The notes below the pieces were generated by a model. It worked only from the letters and a program-made list of their open reading frames with translations. It made no database searches and had not been told where the DNA came from. A stretch of DNA of 64,000 bases from a virus: the IMG/VR virus record IMGVR_UViG_3300031718_000006, positions 3,494-67,493 of that record; one strand, written 5' to 3'. The stretch's first letter is position 1. The number at the start of each line of letters is the position of its first letter. Both the position numbers and the translations under genes were made by a program. This document shows, in pieces, positions 1,371 to 48,474 of the stretch.

Positions 1371-1486
1371 AAATAATGTAACACGCTTGTCAAGTTCCGC
1401 GACCTAAAAATAGGAGGAGCCGCCAGCGTGTGCCAGCGGCTCAATGAAAAGACAGCTTCTTACCCTTATTGGTGGAGTCTACACCT

Positions 1487-4920: not shown

Positions 4921-5191
4921 TATGCGGTTCAAATCCTTCGACTTTGAGAGCATGGAGAGCCTGTCGAATTCGTTCATTAATGATTCGTTGCCGTTGCTGG
5001 TCTCGCTGATACTGGGCATGATATGGGACAAAGAGCTTCCTGACCTCAGATTTAATAACCATGCGTACGACCCAAGCACCAACAGCGTAAAGGCTAGTAA
5101 GACTAGCGACCAAAACAGCAAGCACGATGGACTCGGCGTTAGGCTCAGGCAAGGCCACCCCACTGAAAATGCCAACATATGCCACATTCAA
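4898..5191 (-). CDS. membrane protein with coiled coil
   Basis: TM segment then QRDQQRQRIINERIRQ; GAGG SD. Confidence 0.55.
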   Translation of the reverse strand: MNVAYVGIFSGVALPEPNAESIVLAVLVASLTSLYAVGAWVVRMVIKSEVRKLFVPYHAQYQRDQQRQRIINERIRQALHALKVEGFEPHNVYPEGD

Positions 5192-27753: not shown

Positions 27754-29091
27754 TTACTTTTCGATTTCACGGATGAAGTCTACGCACGCCTCACTCCAGC
27801 CGTCGATATGCGTCCATTTCCCGTAGCCGATCCCGTTCTGATAGGGAGCGACGTTGATGAAGTATCCCTTACCGCTCGACAGAGGGATTCCAGAGCCATC
27901 CGCAGCCTGTTCATCCGTAATCACGACTAAGCGGTCATAGCGTTCTCGCTGGTTAATGAGATCAACCGCCTGCCGCGTGCAAGTGCTCGAATGTGGCTGA
28001 CTGTTCACGATAGCGTCCCGCAAGGCAAACCCTCGCCGCGAGGGAATCAGCACAGCCTTGTCGCTGAAGGTGTAAACCACGGCCTCTTGGCATACCTCCC
28101 GCAGCAACATTGCCACTCCGCAAGCGGCGTCCATTCGGGAAATCTCGGACTTGCCAGACACCGCACCACTCATCGAGCCTGAGACATCCAACAGTAGTAC
28201 CGTCTTGCCGCCGATATTCTCCTGCTCTCCGAGGCACTTCAGCATCGCCTGCTCCAACTCAGGTTCTAGCTTAGGAGCGTAACGCGCCGCCGAGATGAAG
28301 CGAAACGGCAATACCCGATCCACTTTCATCTTCAGTAATCCTTCGCGGATAGCATCCATTGAAACTCCCGCCTCCTGCATGTTCCGCAGATTGCGAAGCA
28401 GCGCCAAGGCTCCGAGTTTGTTCTCCGCCAGCAAACCTTCCCAATGGGCCTTTTTGTCCTCTTCGGACTTTTTGCCTTCACCCGCCGAGAGCTTAACCTC
28501 CCAAGTCTCCGGTGCAGGCAAAGTCCCATCAACCAACTGCTTCCAGACGGCCTCCTGCTCTTTGTTCTTGGGTTTGGCGTGGCAGAGAAACAGTACGTCC
28601 CGCAACTTCACCGCATTGTCGCGGTTGTACTTCGCCAAGTCGTATGCCGAGAACTTCTGAAACGCCGAAGCCAGTCCCTTTTTGACCTGCGCCGAAAGGG
28701 TCTTTTTCCCTGGCTGGTCTTTCCAGTAAAGCGCAACAAACTCAGAAAGTTCGTCGGCCCGTTGAATGACAGCCGCCAAAGTCTCCGATACAAGTCCGGC
28801 CTCTGCATCTTTTCGCCGTGCCAGTTCCCGCACAAGAAATAACGGCATGTGGCGAAGTTTCTGCTTCTCTCGGCACTCAACTGCAAGTAGAGCGATCTTT
28901 TCGGCTGAGACGTTCTTAGTCGCCTCAAGGATGGATTCCGCAATCGACTTGCCGTCAACGTAGAACGTATCTTCAAACAGCATGGTTGAGAGTGTCAGGC
29001 GCCGAAGCTGTAGCTCGGAGTTGATCCGAGTAGCGACTGCGCCTTCATGGGTTAATACTGGAGTGGATTTGACTTTCAGGTTGGAACGCAT
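27754..29091 (-). CDS. rsr: Ro60/TROVE RNA-binding protein with vWA domain
   Basis: THEGA, LFEDTFY, YDLAKY, LRDVLFLCH, ETWE, ALLRNLRN, LPFRF, MIDAS motif DVSGSM, VITDEQ. Confidence 0.96.
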   Translation of the reverse strand: MRSNLKVKSTPVLTHEGAVATRINSELQLRRLTLSTMLFEDTFYVDGKSIAESILEATKNVSAEKIALLAVECREKQKLRHMPLFLVRELARRKDAEAGLVSETLAAVIQRADELSEFVALYWKDQPGKKTLSAQVKKGLASAFQKFSAYDLAKYNRDNAVKLRDVLFLCHAKPKNKEQEAVWKQLVDGTLPAPETWEVKLSAGEGKKSEEDKKAHWEGLLAENKLGALALLRNLRNMQEAGVSMDAIREGLLKMKVDRVLPFRFISAARYAPKLEPELEQAMLKCLGEQENIGGKTVLLLDVSGSMSGAVSGKSEISRMDAACGVAMLLREVCQEAVVYTFSDKAVLIPSRRGFALRDAIVNSQPHSSTCTRQAVDLINQRERYDRLVVITDEQAADGSGIPLSSGKGYFINVAPYQNGIGYGKWTHIDGWSEACVDFIREIEK

Positions 29092-29431: not shown

Positions 29432-29587
29432 TTATGTCTTATTGCGGGCGTCAATCGCTTCTTTGACCAAGGCCGTCAGCATATTCGCCACACTCGGCCT
29501 AGTCTCCTTTTTCGCCAGTTCCGCAGCCATGCGGTAATAATCCAGCGGAAGCCTTACAAACGTCACCCGCGTACTCTGTTTCGCCAC
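29432..29587 (-). CDS. ribbon-helix-helix regulator (Arc/CopG-like)
   Basis: TFVRLPLDYYRMAAELAKKETRPSVANMLTALVKEAI; GTG start 7 nt after the -10 box. Confidence 0.8.
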   Translation of the reverse strand: MAKQSTRVTFVRLPLDYYRMAAELAKKETRPSVANMLTALVKEAIDARNKT

Positions 29588-29594
29588 GCCTGCA

Positions 29595-29623
29595 AATTTA
29601 CAACGAAGTGACAGGGTTGTCAA
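29595..29623 (-). promoter_or_regulatory. sigma70 promoter with palindromic operator
   Basis: TTGACA-N17-TAAATT; TGACA-N4-TGTCA at 29609-29622. Confidence 0.75.
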
Positions 29624-30182
29624 GGTTTATTACATCGTATGATTTTAGATACGCCAGCGCCCGCTCTGCCCATGTGCCTGAGTGGGCAATATATTCGCCT
29701 TCGGCTAGGAACATCTCGAATTGCCCTAGCCTATGATTGCACCTTAAGCACAAAAGACCACGGACGCACTTGCCGCAAGATTTACGTTTATGGCCCGGAC
29801 AACAAATATGGCTGTGGTCGATACAGAGGCGAATGTACTTTTTGCTGCATACCGTCGCAGGGCACAGAGCGCAATGAAGCCCTTGCTGTTCAAGTTTGGC
29901 AGCATACCAGCCCCTAGGGACTCGATACTTGAGCGCATTGCCGTCTTTTTTGTATAGCTCCAAATCTCGTAGACGTGCTCCGGATCGGCAAATTTTGCAT
30001 CCCTTGTCGAATCCTGATGGTTGTTCAAATTGTTTGTGCCAACCGCACCACTTAAACCCCTTGCGGCGATAAGCGATCTGTTCTTCTTTGGAAAATCCGT
30101 ACTGATAGAGCTTGCTATTGAAGAGATGGGGTACGCCCTTGCCAGCGCGACCCCCGATTGCATTGGTGATTCGATTCGCCAT
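29598..30182 (-). CDS. Endonuclease VII-like His-Me finger (homing) endonuclease
   Basis: QQGLHCALC...IDHSH...VRGLLCLRCNHRLG. Confidence 0.88.
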   Translation of the reverse strand: MANRITNAIGGRAGKGVPHLFNSKLYQYGFSKEEQIAYRRKGFKWCGWHKQFEQPSGFDKGCKICRSGARLRDLELYKKDGNALKYRVPRGWYAAKLEQQGLHCALCPATVCSKKYIRLCIDHSHICCPGHKRKSCGKCVRGLLCLRCNHRLGQFEMFLAEGEYIAHSGTWAERALAYLKSYDVINLDNPVTSL

Positions 30183-30297: not shown

Positions 30298-31665
30298 CTA
30301 GATGACCGGCTGTGTTGCATTAGAAATATAAATCCCAGACCGGGGGGCACTATCAACTAAGTTCCACGATGATACATAAGCGAACATGTGAGAACTTAGG
30401 TAACTGTTACTCCCAGAAGGAGATACAGGGATATCGGGTACGGGCACCACGATCTGGCCTCCACCGAAATCGTACAATTCCAGCGGAGCGAGTTCGCCCA
30501 TGTACCAGTTGTCCATGACGAGGCCGTCGATGCGACCGGGGGTAGCAGTCCAAGAGATGTGGAGTTTGCGACCGCCGAACTCATCCTGAAAGTTTTTGTA
30601 GGCCATGTCCTGCGTGGCTTCGCCTTTGACGTTTTCGCGGAGGGCGAATTGCACGTTGTACTGGAGGTTAGCCATTGAGTAGCCTTGATCTGGCCCGGTG
30701 TACCAGATCATGGACTTCTCGGCTTCGGAATCTGGCCCGAGAGCGCGACCCAAAAGGGTTCTAGCGCGGGGGGCAAGTCCGGGGGTTACAGGGGCGTTGA
30801 GGTTGATGGTAGGGGTGCTCAAACGTCCGGGGTAAGTGGCGCGGTTCAATCCGCCAATGGTTCCGGTGTTTGAGTTAACCTGCCAAGCCTTAATGCCTAA
30901 GATTGAAGCAGATGCGGCGGCGTTGGTGGTATTGGAGTTGTAAATGAACAGGTAATCGCCAGTCTGAGTTGCTCCGCCGGATGAAGGCAGTACAGTGGAG
31001 GAGTAAATCGTCTGCGATACCGGATCAATGTAGCTGATGGTGAACGATCCGCGAGGCGAGGCGGAGGTTTCTGATGGGTAAACGGTAACGTTCTGCTGAT
31101 CGGAGAACGCAGCCGCAATATTCAGGCCGACAATGGACGAAAATGAAGGCCCAGCCGCTCCGGTTCCGCTGTTGACGGTTGCGGTCGAAGGAATCTGGTC
31201 AATCATGCCGGAACCGTCGGAATTTACTAAACCCTCAAGTCCCTGCATGGCGGAGTCCAGAGAGTTCTTCATTTCCTGCGCTTTGACTTCAAGCAGGCCG
31301 CGTTCTTTGCCATTAGTCGCCTGCTGTGCCAGCCATGAGATTTCGCAGACCGAGTAAGTGAATACCGGCGCGACGGCGAACGATGCCCACTGAGAACCAC
31401 TGCCGCGACCCAAAGAATCGGCGTTGCCAGTTCCTTGGTTCAGGGCCGCACCGCTCTGCACGCGGAACGGTACACGGAACGGAGCACGCGCCGTTCCGCC
31501 AGCCGATGTCTCGTTGGCGATCTTGACGCTATGCGCCATCTTTTTGAACAACGAATAACCCGTTGTTCCCTTCCAGATTAAGTCTGGGATTTTCTCACTG
31601 AAGCTTTCAATTTCTACGGATTCTACTGCCGATTCCAAAAGTGGGTTCGCTGAAGCGATAGCCAT
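30298..31665 (-). CDS. major capsid protein
   Basis: 455 aa; follows portal and scaffold; ILGIKAW...IGGLNRATY, C-terminal PRSGIYISN; strong terminator. Confidence 0.8.
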   Translation of the reverse strand: MAIASANPLLESAVESVEIESFSEKIPDLIWKGTTGYSLFKKMAHSVKIANETSAGGTARAPFRVPFRVQSGAALNQGTGNADSLGRGSGSQWASFAVAPVFTYSVCEISWLAQQATNGKERGLLEVKAQEMKNSLDSAMQGLEGLVNSDGSGMIDQIPSTATVNSGTGAAGPSFSSIVGLNIAAAFSDQQNVTVYPSETSASPRGSFTISYIDPVSQTIYSSTVLPSSGGATQTGDYLFIYNSNTTNAAASASILGIKAWQVNSNTGTIGGLNRATYPGRLSTPTINLNAPVTPGLAPRARTLLGRALGPDSEAEKSMIWYTGPDQGYSMANLQYNVQFALRENVKGEATQDMAYKNFQDEFGGRKLHISWTATPGRIDGLVMDNWYMGELAPLELYDFGGGQIVVPVPDIPVSPSGSNSYLSSHMFAYVSSWNLVDSAPRSGIYISNATQPVI

Positions 31666-31820
31666 AGAGATTCCTTTGATTTCGAGCTAGGCTTCGATTG
31701 TGAGACGCAACCGACCCTGCGTGGAGACCCCTGTTACTTCAAAGGAACCGTTTCAAAGGCGCTTAGTTTTTAGGAGGCTCGACTCCCATCTACTTTGGTT
31801 CTATATAGGAATTGAGAAAC

Positions 31821-31905
31821 TGGCGGAGAGTGAAGGAATCGAACCCTCATCCTTGCGGGAGCGGCGGTTTTCAAGACCGTTTGCCAACCTTTGGCCGCAC
31901 TCTCC
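31821..31905 (-). tRNA. tRNA-Ser(UGA)
   Basis: Acceptor GGAGAGU/ACUCUCC-G-CCA; loop CU-UGA-AA; long variable arm; T-loop UUCGAUU. Confidence 0.9.
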
Positions 31906-31911
31906 GAAATC

Positions 31912-31986
31912 TGGTCGGGATGGCAGGAGTTGAACCTGCGTGGACATGTTCCCAAGACATGTGGGTGGCCGCTACCCTACATCCCG
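31912..31986 (-). tRNA. tRNA-Pro(UGG)
   Basis: CGGGAUG/CAUCCCG-A-CCA; CAUGU-CUUGGGA-ACAUG. Confidence 0.93.
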
Positions 31987-31990
31987 ACTC

Positions 31991-32065
31991 TGGTGGACAC
32001 AGAGAGAATCGAACTCTCAACTCTCGGGTGCAAACCGAGCGTTTTCCCGTTAGAACTACGCGCCC
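31991..32065 (-). tRNA. tRNA-Ala(UGC)
   Basis: G3:U70; CUCGG-UUUGCAC-CCGAG; ACCA end. Confidence 0.93.
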
Positions 32066-32071
32066 AAAACT

Positions 32072-32147
32072 TGGAGCCAGCGGAGATAATCGAAACCCCA
32101 CGCGTCCGCTTACAGGGCGGTTGCTCTTCCACTTGAGCTACGCTGGC
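32072..32147 (-). tRNA. tRNA-Thr(UGU), atypical (C33, U53-A61)
   Basis: GCCAGCG/CGCUGGC-U-CCA; anticodon loop CC-UGU-AA. Confidence 0.85.
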
Positions 32148-32177
32148 AATAAAAAAGCCCCCGATTTCTCGGAGGCT
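32148..32177 (-). terminator. attenuator terminator (3:4 hairpin) immediately before the tRNA array
   Basis: AGCCUCCGA-GAAA-UCGGGGGCU-UUUUU. Confidence 0.88.
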
Positions 32178-32199
32178 GTCTTGTGTCTGCTAAACAAGC

Positions 32200-32265
32200 T
32201 TACACGGACATACCCCCGCCTGTCGCTGGCGTTGAGGATGTCGGTGTCGATGAAAGATGAATCAT
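32200..32265 (-). CDS. attenuator leader peptide MIHLSSTPTSSTPATGGGMSV (may start at GTG 32277)
   Basis: Codons TCA TCG ACA CCG ACA TCC TCA ACG CCA GCG ACA; overlaps alternative hairpins. Confidence 0.8.
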   Translation of the reverse strand: MIHLSSTPTSSTPATGGGMSV

Positions 32266-32283
32266 TGGCGCGGCCACTCGGAA

Positions 32284-32315
32284 AGTCTACTCGCTTAGAA
32301 TAACATCGCTGTCAA
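32284..32315 (-). promoter_or_regulatory. candidate promoter/operator of the leader-tRNA unit
   Basis: TTGACA at 32310-32315; TGtTATTCT and TAGACT -10 candidates (spacing non-canonical); TAACA-N4-TGTCA. Confidence 0.55.
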
Positions 32316-32319
32316 GCCC

Positions 32320-32391
32320 TCACCGCAGCGCCCGCGCAAGCAACTGGATGAAGACGAAAAGCAGCAGGATTTTCAATACCGCGCAGATCAA
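32320..32391 (-). CDS. 23-aa hydrophobic peptide, putative
   Basis: MICAVLKILLLFVFIQLLARALR; TTG start overlaps the scaffold stop. Confidence 0.35.
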   Translation of the reverse strand: MICAVLKILLLFVFIQLLARALR

Positions 32392-33713
32392 CGAGGCTTG
32401 TTACCCCACGAAACATAGCGCCCGTTTCTGAGGTAGGCTCGGCCTGCAATGAACTCGGTATCGCTGGTCTTCTGCCAGTCGATTTCGTTGCGGTCAGGCT
32501 TTGAACTCGTGTATTGCGGCTTCACTCCGGCAGGTGCGGGTGCTCCCGGCTTTGGTGCTCCGGGTTTCGGCGTAGGTTTTGCTCCGCCCTTGAGGTAATT
32601 CGGGTAGCGTGTCTCGATCATGGATTTCACGATCCGAGCGGCCATCGTTTTGACCTTCGAGGCGTGATATTGCTGGATTTTGTTCTTGTCGGGGTTCTTT
32701 ACCGCAAAGAAGGCATCCATTTGCGACTGATAGCTCTTGTCGGCTTCCAACTCAGAGAAAAGACGGCTCTTAATCCCCCTAGCGAGGTCTTGTTTGCCTT
32801 CAAGTGAGAGTTGATTGAAAAAAGTCTTGTAATTTTTGAAGTATTTGCCGAGTTCTGTACCCAGTTCGCGGTTGTTATCGCCTTCGCAAGCTGTTGCTAT
32901 GCCAGTTTGGAACTCTTTCTGCTTGGTAGTCTGGAATTCTGTGCGTTCTTTTTCGAAAGCCTGCCGCTCAGGGTCGAGTTTGTCCTTGTCCGATGACTTG
33001 ACGCTGTTTTCCAGGTTGCCGAACCAGTCCGTCATCTCCTGAAGTAAGGCTTTTGCAGTATCAAGATCAGGCTTTTCGCCGCTAAGTGACTTCGCAAGCG
33101 CCCCTAAGACTTTCGGCAGCCCGACTTCCACCATGCCTTGGTAGAAATGCGGCTTCATGGTCTCGTAATAGGCTTTTTGGTCAACCTCGCGCAGGTCTTC
33201 AAGATAGGGGCCAGCCAACTTAGCAAAAGCTTCTGGATGGCCATTCGATTTCATGTCCTCATAAAGACTTCTCAGGACGCTGCGGTCGCCCGCATAGAGA
33301 GCATTATCGGTTTCGTTGACTGATTTGATTGTGGATTGAAGCTGGGATAGCCCTTCTGCCCCTCCCACAGCCTCTAGGAGCGCCTTGCTCTCCCTAGCTG
33401 CCGCTACGGTAGGGAATTCGGCCTTGTACGCCGTATAGCGCCCGTATGCGTTGTTTAACTCCCTTGCGATTGGAGCATTCTTAGGGTCTGAATCGCGGAA
33501 ATTCTTGAGTGCGGAGCGGATCGCGGCGGGATTCGTCCGTCCATCGACAGGTTTATCGCCGGGAGTTTCAGTTTCCGGTTCCGCAGCAGGTTCGTCAAGT
33601 TCCGTAGGACTTTCGGTGACTTCTTCCGCCGGAGTTTCAACAGGGGTTTCAGTTGGGGTTTCAGTAACCGGAGCAGCAATATCCATCAATGCAGAAACAT
33701 CACCAGCGGCCAT
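32388..33713 (-). CDS. capsid scaffolding protein, putative
   Basis: Acidic Pro/Glu N-terminus, helical core, between portal and capsid genes. Confidence 0.7.
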   Translation of the reverse strand: MAAGDVSALMDIAAPVTETPTETPVETPAEEVTESPTELDEPAAEPETETPGDKPVDGRTNPAAIRSALKNFRDSDPKNAPIARELNNAYGRYTAYKAEFPTVAAARESKALLEAVGGAEGLSQLQSTIKSVNETDNALYAGDRSVLRSLYEDMKSNGHPEAFAKLAGPYLEDLREVDQKAYYETMKPHFYQGMVEVGLPKVLGALAKSLSGEKPDLDTAKALLQEMTDWFGNLENSVKSSDKDKLDPERQAFEKERTEFQTTKQKEFQTGIATACEGDNNRELGTELGKYFKNYKTFFNQLSLEGKQDLARGIKSRLFSELEADKSYQSQMDAFFAVKNPDKNKIQQYHASKVKTMAARIVKSMIETRYPNYLKGGAKPTPKPGAPKPGAPAPAGVKPQYTSSKPDRNEIDWQKTSDTEFIAGRAYLRNGRYVSWGNKPR

Positions 33714-48396: not shown

Positions 48397-48474
48397 ACGG
48401 CGGAGTCTAGCACTTTAGTTACCGTCAAATCTAGAAAGACCCGACGCGGAGGTAATCTCGGTCGGGTCTTTACC

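What the first reader, a model, noticed from the sequence alone, without database searches (positions are those of the whole stretch)
32148..32277. Ribosome-dependent attenuator that may sense loss of NCA/NCG-decoding tRNAs and switch on phage backup tRNAs
Seen in sequence: an unannotated 21-codon ORF (32265-32200, -) reads ATG ATT CAT CTT [TCA TCG ACA CCG ACA TCC TCA ACG CCA GCG ACA] GGC GGG GGT ATG TCC GTG TAA. It has 11 consecutive NCN codons, 10 of them NCA/NCG. An in-frame upstream GTG (32277) adds GCC GCG CCA. These are the codons read by the four tRNAs directly downstream. The full trp/his-type architecture is visible. Segment 1 GACAUCCUCAACGCC (32242-32228, inside the control codons) pairs with segment 2 GGCGGGGGUAUGUC (32220-32207). 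Segment 2 alternatively pairs with segment 3 GACAGCCUCCG (32180-32170), forming an antiterminator. Segments 3:4 form AGCCUCCGA-GAAA-UCGGGGGCU plus a U tract that ends 3 nt before tRNA-Thr. Established: in amino-acid operon attenuators, ribosome stalling on control codons frees segment 2 and gives read-through. Inference: here the input is a tRNA class (U34-G35) spanning four amino acids, and the output is the tRNAs themselves. That would be a negative-feedback circuit suited to countering host tRNA-cleaving defence. I know of no described phage tRNA array controlled this way.
Basis: partly seen in the sequence, partly recalled or inferred. Interest (0 to 1): 0.96.

Follow-up and report, generated by a model that had tools for sequence, protein, structure and literature searches.

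The report
Codon-matched leader attenuator before phage tRNAs
A soil phage places its four tRNA genes behind a tiny gene written in the very codons those tRNAs read and wired to a switchable transcription stop, so it probably makes more of these tRNAs when ribosomes read those codons slowly.

Summary
A 21-codon ORF (25 codons from an upstream GTG) carries 11 consecutive Ser/Thr/Pro/Ala codons, 10 of them NCA/NCG. A strong terminator follows and abuts tRNA-Thr(UGU), Ala(UGC), Pro(UGG) and Ser(UGA).

- **Codon cluster:** of 127,930 eleven-codon windows in all six frames of the 64 kb, this is the only one with 10 NCR codons.
- **RNA switch:** the terminator's left arm gains -14.1 kcal/mol from segment 2 once segment 1 is masked (3 of 1000 shuffles reach this). 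It gains only -1.6 with the whole leader present.
- **Calibration:** the same measures on E. coli thrL, trpL and hisL give comparable or weaker values.
- **Public analogue:** a promoter, codon-matched ORF, switchable terminator and tRNA block also occur in four phiCbK-like phages.

Weak points: the cassette is a singleton, and none of the 23 related loci has tRNAs next to the neighbouring 455-aa gene. There is no Shine-Dalgarno, no canonical promoter and no RNA data. The anti-defence idea is untested.

Earlier unchecked notes of this scan report the same kind on at least eight other phage genomes. Ten literature searches found no published account.

Verdict: probably a real leader-peptide attenuator gating tRNA genes (about 0.6), a new variant of a known mechanism.

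The parts
32301..32316 (-). CTTGACA-N4-TGTTA: a TTGACA hexamer (32315-32310) with a half-palindrome. Candidate -35 element or operator at the head of the cassette.
   Evidence: The same CTTGACA-N4-TGTYA occurs at 29623 and 1393 (- strand), both before RNA-producing loci. The consensus scan did not call a sigma-70 promoter here.
32284..32289 (-). TAGACT, candidate -10 element. It would put the transcript start at about 32280-32276, at the GTG of the long form of the ORF.
   Evidence: 5 of 9 - strand TAGACT copies are intergenic, against 19% non-coding by my gene calls. At 48409, TAGACT + 7 nt + ATG heads a gene that has no SD. Inference only; there is no RNA data.
32200..32277 (-). Leader ORF: 25 codons from GTG 32277, or 21 codons from ATG 32265. 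Stop TAA at 32202-32200. Peptide (V/M)AAP-MIHLSSTPTSSTPATGGGMSV.
   Evidence: SD pairing energy is -2.6 (ATG) and -4.7 (GTG), against a median of -6.6 for 63 called genes.
32221..32253 (-). Control codons: 11 consecutive Ser/Thr/Pro/Ala codons, 10 of them NCA/NCG (6 NCA).
   Evidence: the only 11-codon window of 127,930 with 10 NCR codons.
32228..32242 (-). Segment 1 (GACAUCCUCAACGCC), inside the control codons. It pairs with segment 2 and acts as the anti-antiterminator.
   Evidence: Permuting the order of the control codons frees segment 2 in 975 of 1000 trials. Random A/G third bases free it in 1000 of 1000.
32207..32220 (-). Segment 2 (GGCGGGGGUAUGUC), made of the Gly-Gly-Gly-Met-Ser codons. 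It mimics the 3' arm of the terminator.
32170..32180 (-). Segment 3 (GACAGCCUCCG). It pairs either with segment 2 (antiterminator, -23.8 kcal/mol) or with segment 4.
   Evidence: It gains -14.1 kcal/mol when segment 1 is masked; 3 of 1000 dinucleotide shuffles reach this.
32148..32177 (-). Intrinsic terminator: 9-bp stem (32177-32156), GAAA loop, then UUUUUAUU running up to the first base of tRNA-Thr.
   Evidence: The identical hairpin serves as a plain gene-end terminator in 12 unrelated viral contigs.
32072..32147 (-). tRNA-Thr (anticodon UGU), CCA encoded
   Evidence: Rfam 45.4 bits
31991..32065 (-). tRNA-Ala (anticodon UGC), CCA encoded
   Evidence: Rfam 51.5 bits
31912..31986 (-). tRNA-Pro (anticodon UGG), CCA encoded
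   Evidence: Rfam 56.3 bits
31821..31905 (-). tRNA-Ser (anticodon UGA), long variable arm, CCA encoded
   Evidence: Rfam matches only the tRNA-Sec model, at 43 bits against a cut-off of 47.

Best explanation
The stretch 32316-31821 (- strand) is a self-contained cassette inserted between two conserved phage genes. In order it holds a promoter, a short leader ORF, a switchable intrinsic terminator and four tRNA genes.

The proposed mechanism is as follows.
1. Transcripts start near 32278, so the leader is probably translated from a leaderless or nearly leaderless RNA.
2. If the ribosome runs through the Ser/Thr/Pro/Ala codons to the stop at 32200, it covers segment 2. If no ribosome loads, segment 1 holds segment 2. 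In both cases the terminator forms and transcription ends in the U tract, 3-8 nt before tRNA-Thr.
3. If the ribosome stalls on the control codons, roughly codons 8-12, it melts segment 1 and leaves segment 2 free. These codons are mostly NCA/NCG, read by UGN anticodons.
4. Segment 2 then pairs with the terminator's left arm before the right arm is made, and the polymerase reads on into the four tRNA genes.

The output, tRNAs with UGU, UGC, UGG and UGA anticodons, relieves the stall. The result is a negative-feedback supply circuit for one class of decoding capacity.

Shown: the sequence features, their statistics, the alternative pairings and their likeness to textbook attenuators. Inferred: the promoter, translation of the ORF, stalling and read-through.
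For: (1) Codon match.
- The leader holds the densest NCA/NCG cluster of the whole window in any frame (1 of 127,930 windows). It is also one of the two longest NCN runs.
- Its stop lies 52 nt before the only tRNA genes of the window, which read exactly these four codon boxes.
- I calculate that the top-scoring window would fall in the ~250 nt ahead of the array, on the right strand, with probability about 0.002.
- The third-base bias (10 of 11 R, 6 of 11 A) exceeds the phage's usage (52% R; NCA 16-24%). The match is therefore at anticodon level, not only at amino-acid level.

(2) Switch.
- With the whole leader present, the terminator's left arm gains only -1.6 kcal/mol from upstream RNA. With the first 42 nt masked it gains -14.1 (3 of 1000 shuffles reach this).
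- Three other terminators in the window gain -2.9, -2.0 and 0.0.
- The identical terminator in 7 distinct unrelated contexts gains 0 to -5.6.

(3) The control codons are arranged to sequester segment 2. Only 25 of 1000 codon-order permutations, and 0 of 1000 random A/G third-base sets, do so as well.

(4) Calibration on E. coli thrL, trpL and hisL.
- Whole-leader gain: 0.0, -0.4, -0.5 (window -1.6).
- Masked gain: -9.0, -11.0, -6.5 (window -14.1).
- Refolding barrier: 8.7, 5.8, 15.6 (window 7.2).
- Distance from stop to the left arm: 20, 42, 61 nt (window 22).

(5) There is no room for a promoter between the terminator and tRNA-Thr. All tRNA transcription must therefore pass the terminator.

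(6) False-positive control. In 51 tRNA blocks of eight other public records, the best upstream ORF never had a run above 5; the window has 11.

(7) Independent analogue. Four phiCbK-like phages have TTGACA-17 nt-(-10)-7 nt-ATG, then a 31-32-codon ORF rich in the amino acids of the next tRNA block. That block is Phe/Val/Ile/Gln, or Val/Ile/Gln/Asn with a run NNVQQIQVV. An in-ORF mimic of the terminator's right arm gives a masked gain of -25.5 to -29.9.
Against: - No conservation evidence. Of 23 related loci (at least two pairs are the same contig held twice; 19 carry 500 nt or more upstream), 0 have a tRNA next to the 455-aa gene. The slot holds other genes in L001.
- No similar leader turned up in INPHARED. 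Exact or degenerate pattern scans of IMG/VR also found nothing.
- The ATG has no Shine-Dalgarno (-2.6, against a median of -6.6 for the phage's genes).
- The consensus scan finds no sigma-70 promoter, and TTGACA and TAGACT lie 20 nt apart.
- At equilibrium the terminator wins for every modelled ribosome position (P 0.90-0.99; 3-6 kcal/mol in favour). The estimated refolding barrier is only 7.2 kcal/mol. Read-through would have to be kinetic and perhaps partial.
- The terminator sequence itself is generic.
- The codon statistics are post hoc.
- In four arbitrarily chosen phages, 0 of 19 tRNA blocks showed a matched ORF, so such control is not general.
Confidence: 0.6

Rival explanations
1. The hairpin is an ordinary intrinsic terminator or insulator at the end of the upstream operon. 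The tRNAs are made only from terminator-resistant late transcription (a phage antitermination factor) or from leak-through. The short ORF and the alternative pairings are coincidence.
For: - The identical hairpin ends ordinary genes in 12 unrelated viral contigs.
- The upstream 441-aa gene has no other terminator before this one.
- The ORF lacks an SD, and no consensus promoter is called.
- Annotated terminators directly before tRNA genes also occur without a matched ORF, as in phage Moby (L049 6287-6309).
- A weak Sigma70 region-4 hit (17.8 bits against a cut-off of 25.7) suggests phage-specific transcription control.
Against: - It needs three independent coincidences. These are the single densest NCR cluster of the window next to the matching tRNAs, an antiterminator reached by 3 of 1000 shuffles, and control codons ordered to sequester it (25 of 1000 and 0 of 1000).
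- Natural controls with the same terminator lack any partner.
- Pfam did not confirm a NusG-like protein (0 families for the 190-aa ORF).
Confidence: 0.2
2. The leader RNA is a real conditional terminator, but the signal is not ribosome stalling. A protein or RNA factor, or polymerase speed, chooses between the 1:2/3:4 and 2:3 folds. The codon content is a by-product of the C-rich segment 1 pairing with the G-rich segment 2.
For: - The switch statistics do not depend on translation.
- There is no SD.
- GACA occurs five times in the leader RNA, and a sixth time within the TTGACA hexamer upstream, which could be a binding motif.
- The phage encodes RNA-handling proteins nearby: a Ro60/TROVE protein at 27754-29091 and a weak RHH hit.
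Against: - The period-3 C pattern starts 11 nt before segment 1 (32253 against 32242). It lies in frame with an ATG and ends at a stop 22 nt before the terminator arm, the spacing seen in thrL.
- The third-base choice matches the anticodons.
- The phiCbK-like analogue shows the same ORF logic with different amino acids.
- No known riboswitch or leader family matches.
Confidence: 0.1
3. Control is mainly at the promoter. A repressor binds CTTGACA-N4-TGTYA, as TrcR does for the Anabaena trn operon, and co-regulates the tRNA cassette with two other RNA loci. The terminator only trims basal expression.
For: - The motif occurs at 32316, 29623 and 1393, all intergenic and ahead of RNA-producing loci. 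I calculate about 0.04 such sites by chance after 22 TTGACA copies.
- There is a weak RHH_5 hit on 29432-29623 (22 bits against a cut-off of 26).
- The Anabaena tRNA operon is controlled by an RHH repressor at direct repeats over the -10 and the start site (PMC8421152, passages; PMC10272220, abstract).
Against: - This does not explain the codon cluster or the three-way pairing.
- It is compatible with the attenuator and may act on top of it rather than instead of it.
Confidence: 0.08

Closest known systems
E. coli thr operon leader (thrL) and other multivalent leader-peptide attenuators
   Same: A short ORF with a run of control codons for more than one amino acid, followed by Gly codons that form the G-rich segment pairing with the terminator's left arm. 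The stop lies 20 nt (thrL) or 22 nt (window) before that arm. The switch measures are like each other.
   Different: - The output here is tRNA genes, not biosynthetic enzymes.
- The control codons span four amino acids that share a wobble class (NCA/NCG read by UGN anticodons).
- There is no SD.
- There is no sequence or Rfam relationship.
- It sits in a phage.
E. coli trp and his attenuators (trpL, hisL)
   Same: The 1:2 / 2:3 / 3:4 logic. The terminator state is more stable than the antiterminator state at equilibrium, so control must be kinetic.
   Different: One amino acid is sensed, through charging of the host's own tRNA. The regulated genes do not feed back on tRNA abundance.
Anabaena sp. 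PCC 7120 trn operon, a silent tRNA array induced by translational stress
   Same: An accessory tRNA array switched on when decoding is impaired (PMC8421152, passages read; PMC10272220, abstract read).
   Different: Control there is by the RHH repressor TrcR at direct repeats over the -10 and the start site. The words attenuat, leader and terminator occur 0 times in PMC8421152. That paper's supplements, which hold the promoter maps, were not available to me.
Leader ORF before the Phe/Val/Ile/Gln tRNA block of phiCbK-like phages
   Same: A promoter, a leaderless-looking short ORF written in the amino acids of the next tRNA block, an in-ORF mimic of the terminator's right arm, a strong terminator and then tRNAs.
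   Different: - Unrelated sequence and different amino acids.
- A 14-bp terminator lying 130-300 nt before the first annotated tRNA.
- Conserved in four phages of two host genera, whereas the window's cassette is a singleton.

Membership tests
Leader-peptide (ribosome-mediated) transcription attenuators | Short ORF with a cluster of control codons | tested here: met
   11 consecutive S/T/P/A codons in a 21- or 25-codon ORF
Leader-peptide (ribosome-mediated) transcription attenuators | Intrinsic terminator between the ORF and the regulated genes | tested here: met
   9-bp stem, 6 G-C pairs, GAAA loop and U tract at 32177-32148, abutting tRNA-Thr
Leader-peptide (ribosome-mediated) transcription attenuators | Mutually exclusive pairings 1:2, 2:3 and 3:4, with segment 1 overlapping the control codons | tested here: met
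   comparable to thrL, trpL and hisL
Leader-peptide (ribosome-mediated) transcription attenuators | Efficient translation start for the leader (Shine-Dalgarno or leaderless 5' end) | tested here: inconclusive
   SD energy is -2.6 (ATG) and -4.7 (GTG), against a median of -6.6. A leaderless start at GTG 32277 after TAGACT is possible but unproven.
Leader-peptide (ribosome-mediated) transcription attenuators | Promoter directly upstream of the leader | tested here: inconclusive
   TTGACA and TAGACT are present but 20 nt apart. The consensus scan finds 0 promoters in 30500-33500.
Leader-peptide (ribosome-mediated) transcription attenuators | Read-through rises when ribosomes stall on the control codons | not testable with these tools
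   No RNA run holds the stretch. This needs reporter, Term-seq or Ribo-seq work.
Leader-peptide (ribosome-mediated) transcription attenuators | Conservation of the ORF and of the alternative helices in related genomes | tested here: inconclusive
   No homologous leader was found. 0 of 23 related loci carry the cassette. Pattern scans and BLAST found nothing.
Amino-acid operon attenuators in the strict sense (regulated genes are biosynthetic or aminoacyl-tRNA synthetase genes) | Downstream genes make or charge the sensed amino acid | tested here: not met
   The downstream genes are four tRNAs, then a 455-aa protein of unknown family
Rfam leader and riboswitch families (Thr, His, Trp, Phe and Leu leaders; T-box) | Covariance-model score at or above the gathering threshold | tested here: not met
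   Best scores: trpB motif 24.4 bits (59 needed) and Phe_leader 20.6 bits (55 needed). No T-box appears among the 18 matches at E up to 10.
TrcR-type promoter repression of accessory tRNA arrays (Anabaena) | Repeated operator over the promoter, shared with co-regulated genes, plus an RHH repressor | tested here: inconclusive
   CTTGACA-N4-TGTYA at three sites. The RHH_5 hit is below the cut-off. Binding was not tested.

The most novel reading that the evidence does not exclude
Phages widely regulate their tRNA genes by a supply-and-demand circuit not described in print. A tiny, often leaderless test ORF is written in the codons that the downstream tRNAs read, and it decides by classical attenuation whether the polymerase enters the tRNA block. 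The window holds the minimal form: four tRNAs covering one wobble class (UGN anticodons), sensed through NCA/NCG codons. phiCbK-like phages hold a conserved form for Phe/Val/Ile/Gln(/Asn). Such leaders would report tRNA availability itself, whether it is limited by codon-usage mismatch or by host tRNA depletion, rather than amino-acid supply.
Probability: 0.5. Interest if true: 0.85.

Novelty: new variant of a known kind. Interest (0 to 1): 0.72.

Why it matters
If real, this takes the textbook attenuation mechanism and closes the loop on the decoding machinery itself: the sensor reads a codon class and the product is the tRNAs for that class. That would explain how phages dose accessory tRNAs. 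It would also give a simple sequence signature for finding regulated tRNA blocks, namely a short ORF matching the array's anticodons plus a terminator mimic inside the ORF. It would provide a compact part that reports tRNA availability in vivo.

The phiCbK analogue found here sits in a cultured phage with a genetically tractable host, Caulobacter crescentus. The idea can therefore be tested directly, even though the window's own phage is uncultured.

Tried and rejected
**Homologues of the cassette**
- BLAST of 31600-32500 against 50,697 phage records gave only ~80% matches to single tRNAs in 43 records.
- The 441-aa neighbour has no relatives in IMG/VR.
- The 455-aa neighbour has 8 viral and 15 metagenome loci, none with tRNAs.
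- Whole-record tRNA searches of 5 relatives found tRNAs in 2. In the array heads I read, coding sequence runs up to the first tRNA of one head and ends about 90 nt before the other, with no matched leader.
- The degenerate leader pattern gave 0 hits and the 26-nt tRNA-Thr pattern gave 0 hits.
- The exact terminator gave 12 hits, all unrelated gene ends. I used these as controls.

**Expression.** No RNA holder is listed for the stretch; the only run is a DNA run that may be the source sample.

**A recalled precedent.** I remembered a leader-peptide attenuator before E. coli pheU/pheV. The MG1655 sequence shows promoters directly before both tRNA genes and no such ORF. I dropped this.

**Literature.** Ten searches found no paper on leader-peptide attenuation of tRNA genes. 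I saw only listings for most papers, passages of PMC8421152, and the abstract and outline of PMC10272220. Supplements were closed.

**Neighbour identification.** The 441-aa, 455-aa and 879-aa proteins have no PHROG, Pfam or PDB sequence match. I do not name them.

**Equilibrium test.** The equilibrium folding test of the antiterminator was rejected as a criterion after calibration on textbook attenuators.

**Eyeballed tRNA.** A tRNA-like stretch I saw between the phiCbK terminator and tRNA-Phe was not confirmed by Rfam at E up to 0.1.

**Other phiCbK blocks.** The Pro/Pro and Glu/Asp blocks gave only suggestive ORFs.

**Report hand-in.** I added it and sent the same report again.
Full report
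**What is there.**
The window is a 64-kb piece of a 67.5-kb virus record rated 99% complete. It is transcribed almost entirely on the - strand.

ARAGORN finds four tRNA genes and no others. They are Thr-UGU, Ala-UGC, Pro-UGG and Ser-UGA, head to tail at 32147-31821 on the - strand. Three pass Rfam's tRNA threshold. The long-arm Ser gene scores 43 bits on the tRNA-Sec model, against a cut-off of 47.

A 9-bp GC-rich hairpin with a GAAA loop and a U tract (32177-32148) abuts tRNA-Thr. Its stop 22 nt upstream of the hairpin's left arm, an ORF reads ATG ATT CAT CTT, then TCA TCG ACA CCG ACA TCC TCA ACG CCA GCG ACA, then GGC GGG GGT ATG TCC GTG TAA (32265-32200). An in-frame GTG at 32277 adds GCC GCG CCA.

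**Is the codon run more than chance?**
- In all six frames of the window there are 25 runs of 7 or more NCN codons. The run here (11) ties for the longest with AAAAAPPPPPP inside the 879-aa gene.
- Mononucleotide shuffles give 0.05 runs of 11 or more per window.
- Counting only the codons that UGN anticodons read by standard wobble (NCA, NCG), this is the single best of 127,930 eleven-codon windows, with 10 of 11. The next best has 9, at one place, and 8 occurs at eight places.
- In the phage's own genes NCN codons are 27% of all codons, NCR is 52% of NCN, and NCA is 16-24% of each box. From these shares I calculate that 10 or more of 11 NCR has probability about 0.009.
- I also calculate that the top window of the whole sequence falls within the ~250 nt ahead of the only tRNA array, on its strand, with probability about 0.002.

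These statistics are post hoc, but the prediction they test is very specific.

**Is the RNA a switch?**
The minimum-free-energy fold of 32290-32148 contains 1:2 and 3:4 (-46.9 kcal/mol, z -2.8). Alone, 1:2 folds at -16.2, 2:3 at -23.8 and 3:4 at -16.2 kcal/mol.

I measured how much the terminator's left arm gains by pairing with upstream RNA.
- With the whole leader present it gains -1.6 kcal/mol.
- With the first 42 nt masked, as by a stalled ribosome, it gains -14.1. Only 3 of 1000 dinucleotide shuffles reach this.
- Three other terminators in the window gain -2.9, -2.0 and 0.0.
- The identical terminator sequence occurs in 12 unrelated viral contigs as a plain gene-end terminator. In 7 distinct such contexts it gains 0 to -5.6.
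- Permuting the order of the 11 control codons frees segment 2 in 975 of 1000 trials. Redrawing their third bases among A/G frees it in 1000 of 1000. The control codons are therefore arranged to sequester the antiterminator strand.

**Results against the reading.**
- At equilibrium the terminator forms with probability 0.90-0.99 for every modelled ribosome position.
- The terminator state is 3-6 kcal/mol more stable than the antiterminator state.
- The estimated refolding barrier is 7.2 kcal/mol.

**Calibration on textbook attenuators.**
I applied the same scripts to E. coli thrL, trpL and hisL, read from MG1655.

| Measure | thrL | trpL | hisL | window |
|---|---|---|---|---|
| Whole-leader gain (kcal/mol) | 0.0 | -0.4 | -0.5 | -1.6 |
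| Masked gain (kcal/mol) | -9.0 | -11.0 | -6.5 | -14.1 |
| Antiterminator state (kcal/mol) | -23.3 | -15.6 | -16.7 | -23.8 |
| Terminator state (kcal/mol) | -35.6 | -20.3 | -35.1 | -27.0 |
| Refolding barrier (kcal/mol) | 8.7 | 5.8 | 15.6 | 7.2 |

By these measures the window's leader is as good an attenuator as the textbook ones.

The geometry fits a ribosome that protects about 12-15 nt beyond its A site (a recalled figure). Stalls at about codons 8-12 would melt segment 1 and leave segment 2 free. A ribosome at the stop codon covers segment 2.

**Start signals.**
This is the weakest part.
- The phage's genes mostly use a GGAG-type Shine-Dalgarno: median pairing energy -6.6, and 76% of 63 called genes at -4 or better. 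The leader's ATG scores -2.6 and the GTG -4.7 (motif GGAGTCTC-ATG).
- The consensus scan calls no sigma-70 promoter.
- There is a TTGACA at 32315 and a TAGACT at 32289-32284.
- TAGACT is intergenic in 5 of 9 - strand copies, against 19% non-coding sequence.
- At 48409 it sits 7 nt before the ATG of a gene with no SD. Here it sits 6 nt before the GTG.

A leaderless or near-leaderless transcript is therefore plausible but unproven. The only sequencing run that holds the stretch is a DNA run.

**Context and relatives.**
- The 455-aa gene downstream has many relatives: 645 at E up to 0.001 among 8000 scored, the closest at 81% identity.
- I examined 23 related loci, 8 viral and 15 from metagenomes. 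At least two pairs are the same contig in both collections, and 19 carry 500 nt or more of upstream DNA. None has a tRNA gene.
- In L001 the slot between the 441-aa and 455-aa homologues holds two other ORFs.
- A motif G(G/A)GTCTCC ... GTCTC about 60 nt before the 455-aa gene is invariant in 14 of 14 aligned sequences. In the window it lies downstream of the tRNAs.

The roughly 500-nt unit (promoter-like site, leader, terminator, four tRNAs) therefore looks like a lineage-specific cassette inserted in a variable slot. The consequence is that conservation and covariation, the usual proof, cannot be tested for this locus.

No terminator follows tRNA-Ser, so read-through transcripts would continue toward the 455-aa gene.

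**Is the kind real elsewhere?**
I wrote a simple pipeline. For each tRNA block it takes the best short ORF within 330 nt upstream and scores it for the amino acids of the block.
- On four phages chosen only because their tRNA-Ser resembles the window's, 0 of 19 blocks reached a corrected p of 0.05. The window's block gave 0.0037 with a run of 11.
- On four further records, one of them really bacterial DNA, 3 of 32 blocks passed. Two of these look like false positives: an Arg-rich ORF whose position overlaps an annotated gene, and an annotated small protein. No run exceeded 5.

The third, in Caulobacter phage phiCbK, proved to be a close analogue. In order it has:
- TTGACA, 17 nt, TAGGGT, 7 nt, then ATG;
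- a 32-codon ORF, MSKTYRQFVRQIQVVRNIRAGRSRMADEGFRD;
- 28 nt, then a 14-bp terminator;
- the block tRNA-Phe, Val, Ile, Ile, Val, Gln, Gln.

Ccr5 has the same ORF. The Brevundimonas phages Domovoi and Kabachok have MFTYRNNVQQIQVVRFNRAGHSCMGDGGTQI before a Val, Ile, Val, Gln, Asn block. There the run NNVQQIQVV is nine consecutive codons from the block's set, whose background share is 0.12.

In all four phages the codons CGG GCG GGC C inside the ORF mimic the terminator's right arm (masked gain -25.5 to -29.9 kcal/mol). In the full-length fold the Val-Val-Arg codons sequester that mimic while the terminator forms.

This is independent of the earlier notes of this scan. Those notes report codon-matched leader attenuators before tRNA arrays in at least eight other phage genomes. 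I treat them as leads only. My pipeline's first pass missed the Domovoi case because of its 330-nt reach, so the 0 of 19 is an undercount.

**What is known.**
Ten full-text searches found no paper describing leader-peptide attenuation of tRNA genes.

The nearest published system is the silent tRNA array of Anabaena, induced by translational stress. It is controlled at the promoter by the RHH repressor TrcR. The words attenuat, leader and terminator occur 0 times in PMC8421152 (passages read). For PMC10272220 I read the abstract and outline.

The phage does carry a motif shared by three RNA loci, CTTGACA-N4-TGTYA at 32316, 29623 and 1393. It also has a weak RHH hit. A promoter-level layer may therefore coexist with the attenuator.

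A precedent I recalled for E. coli pheU/pheV does not exist in the sequence.

**Verdict.**
The attenuator reading is the best explanation, at a confidence of about 0.6. It rests on sequence statistics, folding controls, calibration against textbook attenuators and an independent conserved analogue.

It lacks conservation at this locus, a clear translation start, a clear promoter and any expression data. The proposal that it counters host tRNA-cleaving defence is untested. A plainer purpose is homeostatic supply of NCA/NCG decoding capacity.

It works like a trp/thr-type attenuator but is not a member of any described leader family. Its regulated genes are tRNAs, so I class it as a new variant of a known kind.

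Noticed in passing
L056 6488-6834 (phiCbK JX100813.1); L060 up to 941 (Ccr5); L050 12407-12846 (Domovoi); L061 10030-10469 (Kabachok): A conserved promoter, a leaderless-looking 31-32-codon ORF rich in the amino acids of the next tRNA block, an in-ORF mimic of the terminator's right arm, and a 14-bp terminator. The block is Phe/Val/Ile/Gln, or Val/Ile/Gln/Asn. In Domovoi and Kabachok the ORF is annotated as a longer 'hypothetical protein'.
   Followed up: partly
L056 3283-3345 and L050 about 4950-5030: A conserved small ORF, MT(H/Y).LT.YEREA..DTT.A, lies before an annotated terminator and tRNA-Glu/tRNA-Asp in both phiCbK and Domovoi. It may be a second leader with few control codons.
   Followed up: no
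L049 6285-6306 (Stenotrophomonas phage Moby): An annotated terminator 5 nt before tRNA-Trp/tRNA-Cys has an upstream pairing partner within 60 nt worth about -16 kcal/mol. No clearly codon-matched ORF was seen; the best is a 12-codon ORF with 2 Cys.
   Followed up: no
window 32301-32316, 29608-29624, 1378-1394 (- strand): CTTGACA-N4-TGTYA occurs three times, each intergenic and ahead of an RNA-producing locus: the tRNA cassette, the region before Ro60, and a candidate ncRNA. I calculate about 0.04 such sites by chance.
   Followed up: partly
window 48409-48394 (- strand): TGcTAGACT, then 7 nt, then the ATG of the 181-aa gene, with no SD (-0.4). The gene has a weak Sigma70 region-4 hit. This looks like an extended -10 promoter giving a leaderless mRNA. 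TAGACT is intergenic in 5 of 9 - strand copies.
   Followed up: partly
window 31730-31690 (- strand) and 13 related loci: G(G/A)GTCTCC, about 15 nt, then GTCTC, some 60 nt before the 455-aa gene, is invariant in 14 of 14 aligned sequences. GGAG-T-CTCC is a palindrome. It may be a late promoter or operator.
   Followed up: no
window, 8 gene starts on the - strand (e.g. 40345, 33725, 30192, 27702, 24855, 16019): The extended ribosome-binding motif GGAGTCTC sits 0-4 nt before the start codon of several genes.
   Followed up: no
window 27754-29091 and 29432-29623 (- strand): A Ro60/TROVE protein (Pfam 51.8 bits) and, upstream, a small ORF with a sub-threshold RHH_5 hit.
   Followed up: partly
L059 (CAKLQF020000004.1, filed as Acinetobacter phage MD-2021a): The fetched 14 kb carries his genes, envZ/ompR and msbA. 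It looks like bacterial chromosome rather than phage.
   Followed up: no
L001 2835-3847: In the closest relative, the slot that holds the tRNA cassette in the window holds two ORFs of 145 and 190 aa instead. The slot is a hotspot for accessory cargo.
   Followed up: no
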